Source: Escherichia coli | Lineage (GTDB): Bacteria > Pseudomonadota > Gammaproteobacteria > Enterobacterales > Enterobacteriaceae | Direction: 5' to 3' (one strand) | DNA: 64,000 bases | Assembly: GCF_003018255.1 (NCBI RefSeq) | Contig: NZ_CP027440.1 | Shown: positions 21,831 through 24,670 of the stretch, piece by piece | Layout of the letters: each line of letters begins with the position of its first letter | Position numbering within the stretch: the stretch's first letter is position 1 | Notes under the pieces: generated by a model | What the model saw: only the letters and a program-made list of their open reading frames with translations | The model's database searches: none | What the model was told of the DNA's origin: nothing | Position numbers and translations under genes: made by a program

Positions 21831-21847
21831 GGGCGTTTTACTTGACT

Positions 21848-21876
21848 GAAAAGGTTTTCAATCTGAAAACCTTTTC
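21848..21876. terminator. Bidirectional hairpin terminator between yiiD and the esterase gene (gaaaaggttttcaatctgaaaaccttttc)
   Basis: Inverted repeat read directly between the two convergent stops. Confidence 0.6.
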
Positions 21877-21893
21877 TGGGCCCTGGTCCGGAG

Positions 21894-22877
21894 TTACCTT
21901 CCCGCTCTCCAGGCAACATCCCGTAGCGCCGATCGCGCAGCCTCGCTGATACCACCTAACTGAAAAAATCCGTGGATAACGCCAAGGTAGCGTTGGCAGG
22001 TGCATTGCACTCCTTGCCCTGTCATGCGGTGATACAACGCTTCACCTTCATCGCAAAGTGGGTCGTATTCAGCGGTAATGATATGTACAGGTGGCAAGCC
22101 ATTGAAATCATCGCGCCAAAGAGGGCTGGCTTCAGGATGCCTGCGTTCAATGCCTGGCAGGTACATCTCAAAGCCGCTCAGTAAAGTGTCGCGTGTGATG
22201 ATGTAATCGTGACCATTGCGTATGTAGCTTTCGAAATGCGCAGTCGCATCAAGCATGGGATAAATTAAGATGAGTTGTGCTGGTTGCCACTCGCCAGCAC
22301 GCTTCAATCGCAAAGCAGTTACCAGCGCCAGATGCCCTCCCGCACTGTCACCGGCAAGAGTTATTCGTTGTTTATCAACGCCGAGTCGTTCGGCGTGTTG
22401 CCGGACTAATTCTGCACCTCGTTGTGCATCATCATGGGCGGCGGGGAAAGTATGTTCCGGTGCCAGCCGATACTGGACGGCAATAATCCGACATTGCCCG
22501 TAATAGGCTAACTGGCGCAGCTGGTTGTCGTGAGTTGCGAACCCGCCGCTAACAAAACAGCCACCGTAGTAATAAATTATCGTCGGGAGTAATGTCGGGG
22601 CATTCAGCGGTGACACTATTCGTAAGGTCATCCCTTCAAGTTCGATAGTCTGAATATCTACCCGCGTTTCTGTCTCACCCGCAAGGACAGCGCTGGCGAT
22701 ATAGCCCTCTCTGCGCTGCGTAATACTTTGTTGGCGCGATGAGGGGCGACCCGCAGCGATAAACTCTTCGACTAACTCTGCAATTCCTTTTTCCAGTGCC
22801 ATAGTAGAACTCATTTTGCTGTATGAATGTACAGTTTTATACACCCGTTTTTGCTGGATGGATACAGGGAAATTCAC
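21894..22877 (-). CDS. Alpha/beta-hydrolase, hormone-sensitive-lipase (Aes-like) family carboxylesterase, up to 327 aa
   Basis: GDSAGG nucleophile-elbow motif; ORF starts at a GTG (22877), first in-frame ATG at about 22814. Confidence 0.75.
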   Translation of the reverse strand: MNFPVSIQQKRVYKTVHSYSKMSSTMALEKGIAELVEEFIAAGRPSSRQQSITQRREGYIASAVLAGETETRVDIQTIELEGMTLRIVSPLNAPTLLPTIIYYYGGCFVSGGFATHDNQLRQLAYYGQCRIIAVQYRLAPEHTFPAAHDDAQRGAELVRQHAERLGVDKQRITLAGDSAGGHLALVTALRLKRAGEWQPAQLILIYPMLDATAHFESYIRNGHDYIITRDTLLSGFEMYLPGIERRHPEASPLWRDDFNGLPPVHIITAEYDPLCDEGEALYHRMTGQGVQCTCQRYLGVIHGFFQLGGISEAARSALRDVAWRAGR

Positions 22878-22976
22878 GGGCGTGAAAAATCTGGAAAGCG
22901 CCTCGCAAATGTAAAGACAAACCCGGCAGAGACGTGGTTTTGCTGGAGCACTATCAGTAAGCTAGTGGTTTCAAGG

Positions 22977-22993
22977 GTACGTCAATGACGTAC
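22977..22993. promoter_or_regulatory. Perfect 17-bp palindrome (gtacgtcaatgacgtac) upstream of the toxin-antitoxin pair; candidate operator
   Basis: Read directly; lies between the divergent esterase gene and the toxin gene, upstream of a TATAAT at 23024-23029. Confidence 0.4.
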
Positions 22994-23030
22994 AAAAAGG
23001 ATTGTTACTCTAAGCCAATGGCGTATAATT

Positions 23031-23342
23031 ATGCTCTTCATCGAAACGGAAATTTTTACTGAAGATGTTCAAAAACTGCTGACCGACGATGAATTCAGTC
23101 GTTTTCAGTTTTTCCTGGCCTTGAATCCTGACTATGGTGAGGTAATACCTGAAACTGGTGGGTTAAGAAAGGTTCGATGGGTGTCAGGAGGAAAGGGGAA
23201 ACGTGCTGGTGTCAGGGTTATTTACTTTCATCAGGTTAAACATTATGAGATCAGATTACTGCTTATTTATCGTAAGGGTATTAAAGATGATCTGTCTCCC
23301 CAGGAAAAAGCAATGCTCCGGTTGTTAAATACGAGGTGGTAA
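23031..23342 (+). CDS. RelE/ParE-superfamily (HigB-like) type II toxin, 103 aa
   Basis: Small basic protein (MLFIETEIFTEDVQKLL...) immediately followed, with no gap, by an XRE-family HTH gene. Confidence 0.6.
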   Translation: MLFIETEIFTEDVQKLLTDDEFSRFQFFLALNPDYGEVIPETGGLRKVRWVSGGKGKRAGVRVIYFHQVKHYEIRLLLIYRKGIKDDLSPQEKAMLRLLNTRW

Positions 23343-23633
23343 ATGGATAAGGCACTTTTTGAGCGGTTGACTCACAGCATGGCCCAGATGAATGAAATTA
23401 TTGAAGGAACGCGACAGCCTTCGCGGACTTTTGAAGTTGATGCTATGAAAATCAAAGAAATACGCCGCGCTTCAGGGTTGTCACAATCTAAATTTGCCGA
23501 TCTTATTTCTGTAAGCGTAGACACGTTGCGTAACTGGGAGCAGGGGCGACGTTCACCGACCGGGCCTGCAAAGGCTTTGCTGCGAGCGATTGCCAATGAT
23601 CCGCAACATGTGCTGCAAGCACTTAACCGTTAG
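23343..23633 (+). CDS. XRE-family HTH antitoxin (HigA-like), 96 aa
   Basis: HTH (IRRASGLSQSKFADLISVSVDTLRNWEQG); start codon abuts the toxin stop (tggTAAATGg). Confidence 0.6.
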   Translation: MDKALFERLTHSMAQMNEIIEGTRQPSRTFEVDAMKIKEIRRASGLSQSKFADLISVSVDTLRNWEQGRRSPTGPAKALLRAIANDPQHVLQALNR

Positions 23634-24237
23634 AGGCATGGTTATGCCATACAGAAAGCACCAGCATTCAGAACTCCTGTGAAAGCGGCGTAGTGCCACC
23701 TGCTCAGGAGTTTTGCTATGACCCGTAATCGTGCTGACCGTTGCCACCCTATGATGCGATTAAAAAAACTCATCGTCGCGCCGATGATTGACGTCAATGC
23801 TATCGGATGATACCGGGGGTGTTCCGGAAGGAATTCCTTGTTTCCCGAACTGTTACCAACAAAATTATAACGATAAGCAAGTAAAGACCGGTTGGTGGCA
23901 GTACTGACCGGTCTGTGATGGATGATTAATTTCACCTTAAATCCTGGTGCTGTTAGGATGCTGACATTTTTCGGCTACACCATTCAGATTATGCAAATAA
24001 AGATCCAATCAAAAGATAAATATCCCTGAATATAATATATTTATAGCACCCATATCTCATCCTGGGCGATAACCCAACCATTTTTGATTAACAAATGAAA
24101 CAACTGCAACGTTCTTATTATTTCTGGAAAACGTCTCGCAAAAACAAAACAGCATGCAAAAATCCGCTTTTTTTAAATGATTTTTCGGCGTAATTTTCGC
24201 ACATACATTAATGAGTAATATATGTAAGGTATTGGTA

Positions 24238-24456
24238 ATGGCGATGAATACGGTTTTTCTTCATTTATCAGAAGAGGCAATTAAACGGCTGAACAAGCTT
24301 AGGGGCTGGCGTAAGGTTTCACGATCTGCAATTTTACGCGAAGCGGTTGAGCAATATCTGGAGCGGCAGCAATTTCCGGTGCGTAAAGCAAAGGGTGGCA
24401 GGCAAAGGGGGGAGACAGTAGTTGTTGATGATCAGTGTAAGGAGCATAAGGAATGA
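24238..24456 (+). CDS. yiiE: Ribbon-helix-helix (CopG-like) small regulator, 72 aa
   Basis: ORF 24211..24456 with start at internal Met (MAMNTVFLHLSEEAIKRLNKLRGW...); name from recollection of K-12. Confidence 0.55.
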   Translation: MAMNTVFLHLSEEAIKRLNKLRGWRKVSRSAILREAVEQYLERQQFPVRKAKGGRQRGETVVVDDQCKEHKE

Positions 24457-24670
24457 CAAAAAATTTATTATTCTTGAATATAAAAACCAGATGCCCTTAT
24501 TCTGGTATTAATACAAAGCTGTTTTACTTGAACTTATAATAACTGCAACTGTTACATCATATCTGGAAAACGCCTCGCGAAATACGAGAGATTTTGCGGG
24601 AATAGCAGGTGTCGTCATACCCTATGAACTGTAATCCGGGCGACCAGCGCCACCCGGAAAACGTCAGAGA

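What the first reader, a model, noticed from the sequence alone, without database searches (positions are those of the whole stretch)
22977..23633. Toxin-antitoxin module with a perfect palindromic operator candidate and near-leaderless start
A perfect 17-bp palindrome (gtacgtcaatgacgtac) lies about 40 bp upstream of the toxin gene. A TATAAT hexamer (23024-23029) sits only 1 nt before the toxin ATG (23031), implying a leaderless or very short-leader transcript unless another promoter is used. The toxin stop and antitoxin start abut (TAA-ATG), implying tight translational coupling. A stem-loop (aactcctg ... caggagtt, about 23670-23715) downstream may terminate the operon.
Basis: seen in the sequence. 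Interest (0 to 1): 0.5.

Follow-up and report, generated by a model that had tools for sequence, protein, structure and literature searches.

The report
HigBA2/SehCD-type toxin-antitoxin operon with operators

Summary
The genes are a toxin-first type II toxin-antitoxin pair of the HigB2/HigA2 family. They are syntenic with Salmonella sehCD and occur in about half of complete E. coli genomes.

The palindrome GTACGTCA-A-TGACGTAC (22977-22993) has the same core and spacing (GTACG-N7-CGTAC) as the V. cholerae HigA2 operator, which has been footprinted and crystallised. The same motif lies upstream of all 80 homologous loci examined.

The last four bases of that hexamer are the least conserved part of the region.

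A -10 box ending 1 nt before the ATG cannot yield a transcript that contains that ATG. Related loci that do look leaderless have 6-8 nt there. In most relatives the promoter uses a TTGAC inside operator 1 as its -35, which predicts a short leader of about 13 nt with no Shine-Dalgarno sequence. In E. coli that promoter is weak, so the true start is unresolved.

The abutting TAA-ATG and the strong antitoxin Shine-Dalgarno sequence are conserved. The downstream hairpin is real but is not a canonical terminator.

Verdict: a new member of a known kind, of low interest.

The parts
22977..22993 (.). Operator site O1: perfect palindrome GTACGTCA-A-TGACGTAC, core GTACG-N7-CGTAC
   Evidence: Read directly. 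It scores 26.0 bits with the family operator matrix. It has the same core and spacing as the V. cholerae HigA2 operator TGTACGC-N5-GCGTACA. Column conservation is 0.90 across 17 enterobacterial lineages, against 0.55 for the upstream flank.
23010..23026 (.). Operator site O2: degenerate second copy CTAAGCCAATGGCGTAT. Its centre lies 33 bp from the centre of O1, and it overlaps the first bases of the TATAAT.
   Evidence: It scores 20.3 bits. Column conservation is 0.93. A second site is present in 51 of 81 loci, at a clade-specific spacing of 33-34, 45-47 or 17 bp.
22985..23011 (+). Candidate promoter P1, the homologue of the family promoter: -35 ATGACG (22985-22990, inside O1), 15-nt spacer, -10 TACTCT (23006-23011). 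The predicted start is about 23017-23019, giving a leader of about 13 nt with no Shine-Dalgarno sequence.
   Evidence: In most relatives the best promoter is TTGAC(G/T) inside site 1, then 16-17 nt, then a -10 (alignment). In E. coli it matches only 7 of 12 positions. This is inference; no start site has been mapped.
23002..23029 (+). Candidate promoter P2: -35 TTGTTA (23002-23007), 16-nt spacer containing O2, -10 TATAAT (23024-23029). The predicted start is about 23035-23039, downstream of the toxin ATG.
   Evidence: The promoter scan gives 10 of 12 matches. It is in the same register with respect to its operator as the V. cholerae PhigBA2 promoter. Among relatives it is near-consensus only in E. 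coli and Pseudocitrobacter. The AATT of the hexamer is poorly conserved, at 0.53.
23031..23342 (+). Toxin gene (103 aa), HigB2/SehC-type RelE-fold mRNA interferase
   Evidence: It matches PDB HigB-2 chains at E = 1.5e-19 to 1e-18. The catalytic residues R49, R62, Y80 and K82 correspond to VcHigB2 R51, R64, Y82 and K84 and are invariant in the alignment. PGAP uses the same start codon. There is no Shine-Dalgarno sequence (anti-SD duplex -1.5 kcal/mol).
23333..23339 (+). Shine-Dalgarno sequence GAGGTGG for the antitoxin, lying inside the 3' end of the toxin gene
   Evidence: Read directly. The anti-SD duplex is -8.0 kcal/mol. GAGGTGGTA(A/G)ATG is conserved across the enterobacterial clade.
23343..23633 (+). 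Antitoxin gene (96 aa), HigA2/SehD-type Xre-HTH repressor (named NadS family by NCBI)
   Evidence: NCBIfam NadS scores 60.7 bits against a cut-off of 60. It matches PDB HigA-2 at E = 2e-8 and Pfam HTH_3 at 3e-9. The recognition-helix segment TL(R/K)NWEQGRR.PTGPA is near-invariant in 78 homologues.
23669..23715 (+). Imperfect hairpin downstream of the operon; a possible weak terminator or RNA structure. Whether it belongs to the module is uncertain.
   Evidence: The arms are 21 nt and 76% complementary. The 102-nt context folds at -36.1 kcal/mol, z = -2.9. The terminator scan does not call it and there is no Rfam match. It is retained in O157 strains that lack the module, and a G-to-A change in B2 strains breaks one stem pair without compensation.

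Best explanation
The locus is a chromosomal, toxin-first type II toxin-antitoxin operon of the HigB2/HigA2 family. It is the E. coli orthologue of Salmonella sehCD.

The proteins. The 103-aa toxin is a RelE-fold, ribosome-dependent mRNA endonuclease. The 96-aa antitoxin has an N-terminal toxin-binding segment and a C-terminal Xre-type HTH domain that dimerises.

Repression. Antitoxin dimers bind two related inverted repeats upstream of the toxin gene. O1 is the perfect palindrome at 22977-22993. O2 is a degenerate copy at 23010-23026, with its centre 33 bp from that of O1. Together they cover the promoter region and repress transcription of the operon.

The promoter. In the family generally, the -35 hexamer (TTGAC) is built into O1, and O2 lies over the start site or leader. 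I infer that the E. coli operon is transcribed from the equivalent but weakened promoter, starting within O2 at about 23017-23019.

Translation. That start gives the toxin a leader of about 13 nt with no Shine-Dalgarno sequence, so the toxin is translated poorly. The antitoxin is translated efficiently from GAGGTGG, placed just before the abutting TAA-ATG. This keeps the antitoxin in excess despite its downstream position.

Shown by sequence: homology, catalytic residues, operator motif and its conservation, absence and presence of Shine-Dalgarno sequences. Inferred, not shown: DNA binding by this antitoxin, repression, the transcription start and the relative translation rates.
For: Homology:
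- The toxin matches HigB-2 structures at E = 1e-19.
- All four residues shown by mutagenesis to matter in VcHigB2 (R51, R64, Y82, K84; PMC5416850) are conserved here and invariant in alignment A1.
- The antitoxin matches HigA-2 structures, NadS and HTH_3.

Operator:
- The V. cholerae HigA2 site is TGTACGC-TTGGT-GCGTACA, defined by footprint, ITC and crystal structure 8A0W (PMC11006873). That is GTACG-N7-CGTAC, identical in core and spacing to 22977-22993.
- The motif is found upstream of 80 of 80 homologous loci, and 51 of 81 have two copies. Apart from O1 and O2 it is essentially absent from the 64-kb window.
- O1 and O2 are conservation islands (0.90 and 0.93) in otherwise diverged DNA (0.55-0.67).
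- The recognition helix is near-invariant in 78 antitoxins. It includes the equivalents of the V. cholerae base contacts N72 and R77.

Orthology with sehCD:
- The genomic position is the same, between fabY and fdhE.
- Toxin identity is 68-72%.
- S. arizonae, which lacks sehAB, has this toxin.
- SehD was reported to shift its own promoter DNA and to repress it about 10-fold, with two palindromes in the promoter region. That paper has since been retracted.
- An independent study scored SehCD as a functional toxin-antitoxin pair (PMC4366850).

Promoter and translation:
- TTGAC(G/T) inside site 1, then 16-17 nt, then a -10, is the best promoter in most relatives.
- The toxin start lacks a Shine-Dalgarno sequence in 72 of 78 loci. 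In the window the antitoxin duplex is -8.0 kcal/mol and the toxin duplex -1.5.
Against: - No experiment on the E. coli proteins or DNA was found in the searched literature.
- The direct Salmonella evidence for SehD binding comes from a paper marked as retracted.
- Two of the four V. cholerae base-contacting residues differ here (R68 to D, E71 to R), so the binding details may differ.
- In E. coli the family-type promoter is poor: ATGACG-15-TACTCT matches 7 of 12 positions. A much better hexamer pair, TTGTTA-16-TATAAT, lies 17 bp downstream, so the start site I favour may not be the main one.
- One study found no toxicity or phenotype for SehC in Salmonella.
- About 10% of sampled E. coli copies have a frameshifted toxin, so activity of the toxin in E. 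coli is not assured.
Confidence: 0.8

Rival explanations
1. This shares the module and operators of the best explanation but uses a different promoter. In E. coli the active promoter would be the near-consensus TTGTTA-16-TATAAT (P2). Transcription would then begin about 23035-23039, after the toxin ATG. The main transcript would encode only the antitoxin, translated from its own Shine-Dalgarno sequence, and the toxin would be made rarely or not at all. O2, lying in the spacer and -10 of P2, would give autorepression.
For: - P2 matches 10 of 12 positions with a 16-nt spacer, while P1 matches 7 of 12 with a 15-nt spacer.
- The register of P2 relative to O2 is the same as that of the V. cholerae promoter relative to its operator, where the right half-site supplies the TA of the -10.
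- Pseudocitrobacter shows the same pattern: TTGTCA-16-TATTAT with a 1-nt gap.
- Toxin frameshifts recur while the antitoxin protein is invariant.
- From general knowledge, extra antitoxin-only transcripts are a known solution in toxin-first modules such as Rts1 higBA and mqsRA.
Against: - The AATT of the hexamer is the least conserved part of the region (0.53).
- Salmonella, Klebsiella and Citrobacter have non-promoter sequences at this position, such as TAGGGA and TACTCA.
- The expected start window 23034-23039 contains only pyrimidines.
- About 90% of E. coli copies keep an intact toxin ORF with its catalytic residues.
- In A. baumannii higBA2 no separate antitoxin promoter was detected (PMC5906591).
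Confidence: 0.22
2. TATAAT (23024-23029) is the -10 of the operon promoter, and the toxin mRNA starts at or next to A23031, so it is leaderless or has a 1-2-nt leader.
For: - The hexamer is a perfect consensus and has a good -35.
- The toxin has no Shine-Dalgarno sequence.
- V. cholerae higBA2 is described as having a common 'transcription/translation start site', with -10 TACACT followed by 6 nt and then the ATG.
- A clade of metagenomic relatives has 7-8 nt between the -10 and the start codon.
Against: - Here only 1 nt separates the hexamer from the ATG. From established knowledge of sigma-70 start-site selection, initiation occurs about 6-9 nt downstream of the -10.
- No -10-like hexamer ends 6-8 nt upstream of 23031; that position reads TGGCGT.
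- The hexamer is not conserved among orthologues.
Confidence: 0.05
3. The palindrome is unrelated to the toxin-antitoxin pair. It would be either a chance palindrome or a site for another regulator, for example one controlling the divergently transcribed esterase gene (21894-22877, minus strand).
For: - Perfect palindromes of this size occur about 2-6 times per 64 kb.
- The palindrome lies in a shared 228-bp divergent intergenic region.
Against: - The motif travels with the toxin-antitoxin genes in 80 of 80 loci in very different genomic contexts. These include Salmonella loci that have no esterase gene.
- It matches the operator of a homologous antitoxin that was defined experimentally.
Confidence: 0.03

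Closest known systems
Vibrio cholerae HigB2/HigA2 (higBA-2; PDB 5JA8, 5JAA, 8A0W)
   Same: - Toxin-first gene order.
- The toxin is 42% identical (E = 1e-19), with all four active-site residues and the Gly/Lys-rich beta2-beta3 loop.
- The antitoxin has a C-terminal Xre-HTH domain carrying the same NWEQGR recognition segment.
- The operator core and spacing are GTACG-N7-CGTAC.
- The right half-site of the operator supplies the TA of a -10-like hexamer.
- The toxin has no Shine-Dalgarno sequence.
   Different: - V. cholerae has a single operator between the -35 and the -10. Here there are two, 33 bp apart.
- V. cholerae has 6 nt between the -10 and the ATG (leaderless). Here there is 1 nt.
- Two of the four base-contacting residues differ (R68 to D, E71 to R).
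- The sixth base of the half-site is T here and C in V. cholerae.
Salmonella enterica SehC/SehD (STM4032.2N-STM4033)
   Same: - The chromosomal position is orthologous (between fabY and fdhE, with an alpha/beta-hydrolase gene next to it in S. Typhimurium).
- The toxin is 68-72% identical.
- The proteins are also 103 aa and 96 aa, with an abutting stop and start.
- The upstream region has two palindromes at the same spacing: ATACGCCATTGACGTAT and ATAAGC(C/T)AATG(A/G)CGTA(T/G).
   Different: - Salmonella keeps TTGACG-16-TACTAT as a good promoter and has no TATAAT next to the ATG (it reads TAGGGA).
- S. Typhimurium also carries the unrelated sehAB pair on the other side of the esterase gene, which E. 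coli lacks.
- The binding and repression data for SehD are in a retracted paper.
Acinetobacter baumannii plasmid higBA2 (pAB120)
   Same: - It belongs to the same HigB2/HigA2 family.
- The antitoxin represses the operon promoter, and the toxin acts as a co-repressor.
- The operon is a single bicistronic transcript.
- Homologues of this family are frequent on plasmids (893 plasmid records, 307 of them from Acinetobacter).
   Different: It is plasmid-borne with a plasmid-stabilising role and is much more distant in sequence. No operator sequence or transcription start site turned up in my term searches of that paper.
Proteus vulgaris Rts1 HigB/HigA and E. coli K-12 HigBA (ygjNM)
   Same: Toxin-first order, a RelE-superfamily toxin, an Xre-HTH antitoxin and autoregulation through inverted repeats overlapping the promoter.
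   Different: They form a different sequence family. The antitoxins are about 100-138 aa with a different domain arrangement, the toxin active site and neutralisation mode differ, and the operator sequences are unrelated.

Membership tests
HigB2/HigA2 toxin-antitoxin family (V. cholerae type) | Toxin gene lies upstream of the antitoxin gene in one operon | tested here: met
   Toxin 23031-23342, antitoxin 23343-23633, same strand, stop and start abutting.
HigB2/HigA2 toxin-antitoxin family (V. cholerae type) | Toxin homologous to VcHigB2 (RelE fold) | tested here: met
   phmmer against PDB gives E = 1.5e-19 to 1e-18 over residues 2-99. The match to Pfam PF06296 is weak, E = 0.006. No structure was predicted here.
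HigB2/HigA2 toxin-antitoxin family (V. cholerae type) | RelE-like active-site residues (VcHigB2 R51, R64, Y82, K84) and the Gly/Lys-rich beta2-beta3 loop | tested here: met
   R49, R62, Y80 and K82 align with these residues and are invariant in A1. The loop reads VSGGKGKRAGV here and ASKGKGKRGGS in V. cholerae.
HigB2/HigA2 toxin-antitoxin family (V. cholerae type) | Antitoxin with a C-terminal Xre-type HTH domain homologous to HigA2 | tested here: met
   It matches PDB HigA-2 at E = 2e-8 over residues 31-89, and HTH_3 and HTH_31.
HigB2/HigA2 toxin-antitoxin family (V. cholerae type) | Antitoxin N-terminal segment is disordered, folds on the toxin and aids DNA binding | not tested
   Residues 1-30 lie outside the significant alignment. 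No structure or disorder prediction was run.
HigB2/HigA2 toxin-antitoxin family (V. cholerae type) | Operator is an inverted repeat with the GTACG-N7-CGTAC core near the promoter | tested here: met
   22977-22993 matches exactly, and a second degenerate copy lies at 23010-23026.
HigB2/HigA2 toxin-antitoxin family (V. cholerae type) | Antitoxin binds the operator and represses transcription; toxin cleaves mRNA on the ribosome | not testable with these tools
   This needs EMSA or footprinting, reporter assays and in vitro translation or cleavage assays.
Salmonella SehCD orthologue | Same chromosomal neighbourhood and high sequence identity | tested here: met
   The order fabY - toxin - antitoxin - fdhE is seen in Salmonella loci L089-L092 and in the window. 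Toxin identity is 68%. The paper reports 72% identity of STM4032.2N to an E. coli protein. The LT2 sequence itself was not available, so a small doubt remains.
NCBIfam NadS family (NF041265) | Whole-protein score at or above the curated cut-off | tested here: met
   60.7 bits against a cut-off of 60, which is marginal. RefSeq annotates the gene as nadS.
Leaderless mRNA | The -10 hexamer ends about 6-8 nt upstream of the A of the start codon, so that transcription starts on the AUG | tested here: not met
   TATAAT ends 1 nt before the ATG, and no -10-like hexamer sits at 23018-23025. V. cholerae has 6 nt and a metagenomic clade has 7-8 nt. No 5'-end data were available.
Intrinsic (Rho-independent) terminator | G+C-rich stem, short loop, followed by a run of U | tested here: not met
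   The stem is 8-10 bp around a 25-nt, partly structured loop. Only UUUU follows, and that run is partly inside the stem. The scan does not call it.

The most novel reading that the evidence does not exclude
In E. coli, and independently in Pseudocitrobacter, the operon promoter may have been remodelled. A near-consensus -10 would then sit 1 nt from the toxin start codon, so that transcription begins inside the toxin ORF and the locus is expressed mainly as an autoregulated, antitoxin-only (NadS) gene. The toxin gene would be kept but left translationally silent and slowly decaying. That would be a natural route by which a toxin-antitoxin module is domesticated into a stand-alone regulator.
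Probability: 0.2. Interest if true: 0.5.

Novelty: new member of a known kind. Interest (0 to 1): 0.25.

Why it matters
Mostly this is housekeeping. The module sits in about half of complete E. coli genomes, including Nissle 1917, APEC O1, NU14 and NC101. RefSeq labels the toxin "hypothetical protein" and the antitoxin "NadS", so its identity as a HigBA2/SehCD-type toxin-antitoxin pair is easy to miss.

The comparison across 80 loci gives a clear operator consensus, (G/A)TACG(C/T)CA(A/T)TG(A/G)CGTA(C/T). It also shows that the promoter -35 is built into one operator copy in most of the family. That is useful for anyone designing binding or reporter experiments.

The only open point of some interest is the unusual promoter geometry in E. 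coli, which might mean the toxin is not expressed there.

Tried and rejected
- SehAB. I first took the Salmonella counterpart to be SehAB (STM4031/STM4030.S). I rejected this because SehB is 142 aa and only distantly related. The toxin next to fdhE is STM4032.2N (SehC), and S. arizonae, which lacks sehAB, has this toxin.\n- The TATAAT as a conserved -10. Rejected, because orthologues read TATTAA, TACTCA, TATGGA, TAGGGA and similar at that position.\n- A conserved mini-ORF starting at the ATG inside O2 (23018). Rejected, because the distance to the toxin ATG, and therefore the frame, differs between genera.\n- The second ACGTCAATG at 23791 as a third operator. Rejected, because it scores below 10 bits.\n- The small ORF 23718-23810. 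Rejected as a gene, because O157 and HS-02 carry 1-nt indels in it.\n- Known RNA families. An Rfam search of 22700-24300 found nothing.\n- Defence systems. PADLOC gave only generic HTH hits for the antitoxin and none for the toxin.\n- Mapped start sites. Literature searches for a mapped 5' end of this operon in E. coli or Salmonella, and for 'higB-2' with 'leaderless', found nothing usable. The 2006 paper on the V. cholerae hig loci is not held in the library.
Full report
**Observation**

The sequence features are all present:
- GTACGTCAATGACGTAC lies at 22977-22993, with 8-bp arms around a central A.
- TATAAT lies at 23024-23029, followed by T and then the ATG at 23031.
- The toxin stop TAA (23340-23342) is followed at once by the antitoxin ATG at 23343.
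- AACTCCTG (23672-23679) and CAGGAGTT (23705-23712) form the arms of a stem-loop.

The ORF list gives a 103-aa ORF at 23031-23342 and a 96-aa ORF at 23343-23633. No in-frame start lies upstream of 23031. RefSeq annotation of a 99.7% identical strain uses the same two starts.

A perfect palindrome of this class is not rare by itself. The window has 6, against 2.35 +/- 1.4 in Markov simulations. The case for function has to come from elsewhere.

**What the genes are**

- The toxin matches solved V. cholerae HigB-2 chains at E = 1.5e-19 to 1e-18 over residues 2-99.
- The antitoxin matches HigA-2 chains at about E = 2e-8 and Pfam HTH_3 at 3e-9. It just passes the NCBIfam NadS cut-off, 60.7 against 60 bits.
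- Alanine substitution of R51, R64, Y82 or K84 in VcHigB2 reduces its activity 170- to 3000-fold (PMC5416850). These residues align with R49, R62, Y80 and K82 here, and they are invariant in an alignment of ten enterobacterial homologues plus V. cholerae HigB2.

The window is E. coli. The flanking genes are fabY (yiiD), an alpha/beta-hydrolase, yiiE and fdhE. The module is present in 2,636 of 5,426 complete E. coli genomes, almost always once and on the chromosome. It is absent from K-12-like and O157 strains.

RefSeq calls the toxin "hypothetical protein" in most genomes. No NCBIfam model hits it.

**Salmonella counterpart**

I first assumed the counterpart was SehAB and then corrected this. 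SehB is 142 aa. The toxin that sits next to fdhE is STM4032.2N (SehC), which the authors describe as 72% identical to an E. coli protein.

Salmonella loci carrying the 68%-identical toxin have the order fabY - toxin (103 aa) - antitoxin (96 aa) - fdhE. S. arizonae, which lacks sehAB, has this toxin.

The E. coli pair is therefore the orthologue of sehCD.
- For SehD the paper reports EMSA binding to its own promoter, about 10-fold derepression on deletion, and two palindromes in the promoter region. It found no phenotype for SehC. That paper is marked as retracted, so I treat it as a lead only.
- An independent study scored SehCD as a functional toxin/antitoxin pair and detected a SehC peptide (PMC4366850).

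**The palindrome as operator**

The V. cholerae HigA2 operator was defined by footprinting, ITC and a co-crystal structure. It is TGTACGC-N5-GCGTACA (PMC11006873), and in full reads ...TTGCCATCTGTACGCTTGGTGCGTACACTTCCTATATGAA. That is GTACG-N7-CGTAC, the same core and spacing as GTACG-TCAATGA-CGTAC in the window.

I fetched 80 homologous loci from other species and scanned 150 bp upstream of each toxin gene with a 17-bp weight matrix.
- Every locus has at least one site, and 51 of 81 have two.
- In the 64-kb window the matrix finds only 22977 (26.0 bits), 23010 (20.3 bits) and one weak 10.8-bit site.

It overlaps the TA of the TATAAT.

An alignment of 17 enterobacterial lineages shows the two sites as conservation islands:

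| Stretch | Column conservation |
|---|---|
| Upstream flank | 0.55 |
| O1 | 0.90 |
| Spacer between sites | 0.67 |
| O2 | 0.93 |
| AATT completing the TATAAT | 0.53 |

The antitoxin recognition segment TL(R/K)NWEQGRR.PTGPA is near-invariant in 78 homologues. It includes the equivalents of the V. cholerae base contacts N72 and R77. The other two contacts, R68 and E71, are D and R here.

**Promoter and leader**

A -10 hexamer ending at 23029 would place the start at about 23035-23039. This follows from established knowledge that sigma-70 holoenzyme starts roughly 6-9 nt after the -10. Such a start lies inside the ORF, so the hexamer cannot produce an mRNA that contains the ATG at 23031. No -10-like hexamer lies 6-8 nt upstream of 23031.

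The idea of a leaderless message is not foreign to the family.
- V. cholerae has -10 TACACT, then 6 nt, then the ATG. The authors speak of a "transcription/translation start site".
- A clade of metagenomic relatives has 7-8 nt at that position.

A promoter search in all loci shows that in most relatives the best promoter uses TTGAC(G/T) inside site 1 as the -35, followed by 16-17 nt and a -10. The distance from the -10 to the start codon depends on the clade:

| Clade | Distance from -10 to start codon |
|---|---|
| Enterobacter, Salmonella, Citrobacter, Klebsiella | 20 nt (leader about 13 nt, start inside O2) |
| Xenorhabdus, Pantoea, Legionella | 29-33 nt |
| Metagenomic clade | 7-8 nt |

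E. coli and Pseudocitrobacter are outliers. The central base of O1 is A, so the -35 reads ATGACG, the spacer is 15 nt and the -10 is TACTCT. That is 7 of 12 matches. By contrast, TTGTTA-16-TATAAT matches 10 of 12 and lies with a 1-nt gap to the ATG.

I therefore cannot say which promoter is used in E. coli.
- I favour the family-type promoter, which gives a short leader with no Shine-Dalgarno sequence.
- I give about 0.2 to the alternative that the strong downstream hexamers drive a transcript lacking the toxin AUG.

**Translation**

The toxin start has no Shine-Dalgarno sequence in 72 of 78 loci. In the window the anti-SD duplex is -1.5 kcal/mol for the toxin and -8.0 kcal/mol for the antitoxin, whose GAGGTGG lies at 23333-23339.

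GAGGTGGTA(A/G)ATG is conserved throughout the enterobacterial clade. This fits the usual need of toxin-first modules to make more antitoxin than toxin.

**Downstream hairpin**

- The arms 23669-23689 and 23695-23715 are 76% complementary.
- The 102-nt context folds at -36.1 kcal/mol with z = -2.9.
- The terminator scan does not call it and Rfam has no match.
- The segment is retained in O157 strains that lack the module. B2 strains carry a G-to-A change that breaks a stem pair without compensation.

It may be a weak terminator, but nothing ties it to the module.

**Comparison and verdict**

The locus works like V. cholerae HigBA2, and by all sequence tests available here it is a member of that family. 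The differences are two operator copies instead of one and a different promoter-to-start geometry. A. baumannii higBA2 shows antitoxin repression with the toxin acting as co-repressor (PMC5906591). Family members are common on plasmids, with 893 records.

Nothing here is new in kind. It is an uncharacterised E. coli member of a known family, with one unresolved oddity in its promoter.

Noticed in passing
window 23187-23203 (within the toxin gene); loci L002, L085, L086: Frameshifts that inactivate the toxin recur in the run GGAGGAAAGGGGAAACG. B2 strains have a +1 shift and strain HS-02 has a -1 shift. About 6 of 60 evenly sampled E. coli genomes carry a toxin pseudogene. The antitoxin protein is identical in all copies read, and its five variable sites are all synonymous.
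   Followed up: partly
window 21831-24210 (fabY-yiiE interval); L087, L088: This interval is a variable spot in E. coli. K-12-like strains have neither the esterase nor the toxin-antitoxin pair. O157 carries two other hypothetical genes there and keeps homology only from 23608, the last 26 nt of the antitoxin gene, onward.
   Followed up: partly
window 23031-23342: RefSeq/PGAP labels the intact toxin 'hypothetical protein' in most E. coli genomes. The name RelE/ParE toxin appears mainly on the frameshifted copies. No NCBIfam model hits the toxin, and Pfam PF06296 reaches only E = 0.006.
   Followed up: yes
window 23718-23810: A 30-codon ORF is preceded by GGAG (23707-23710, the right arm of the hairpin) 7 nt before its ATG. 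O157 and HS-02 have 1-nt indels in it, so it is probably not a gene.
   Followed up: partly
window 23770-23787, minus strand: A terminator-like hairpin, TCATCGGCGCGACGATGA followed by GTTTTTTT, lies on the minus strand with no obvious gene upstream of it.
   Followed up: no
window 23788-23797: The 10-bp palindrome TTGACGTCAA shares ACGTCAATG with operator O1. It scores below 10 bits with the operator matrix, so the resemblance is probably coincidental.
   Followed up: yes
window 23018-23062: The ATG in the centre of O2 would head a 14-codon ORF (MAYNYALHRNGNFY) overlapping the toxin start if transcription began at A23018. The frame relative to the toxin is not conserved between genera.
   Followed up: partly
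window 21894-22877, minus strand: The divergent alpha/beta-hydrolase is of the hormone-sensitive-lipase/acetyl-esterase type, but it falls below every curated NCBIfam cut-off (best hit LipP1, 237.6 against 350 bits). PGAP starts it 25 codons downstream of the longest ORF.
   Followed up: no
window 24211-24670: This strain has yiiE followed directly by fdhE, with no yiiF. K-12-like and O157 strains have a second CopG-type gene between them.
   Followed up: no
L009, L010 (Pseudocitrobacter), about 60 nt upstream of the toxin start: Like E. coli, these loci have a near-consensus TTGTC(A/T)-16-TATTAT whose -10 ends 1 nt before the toxin ATG, and they lack the TTGAC -35 inside site 1.
   Followed up: partly
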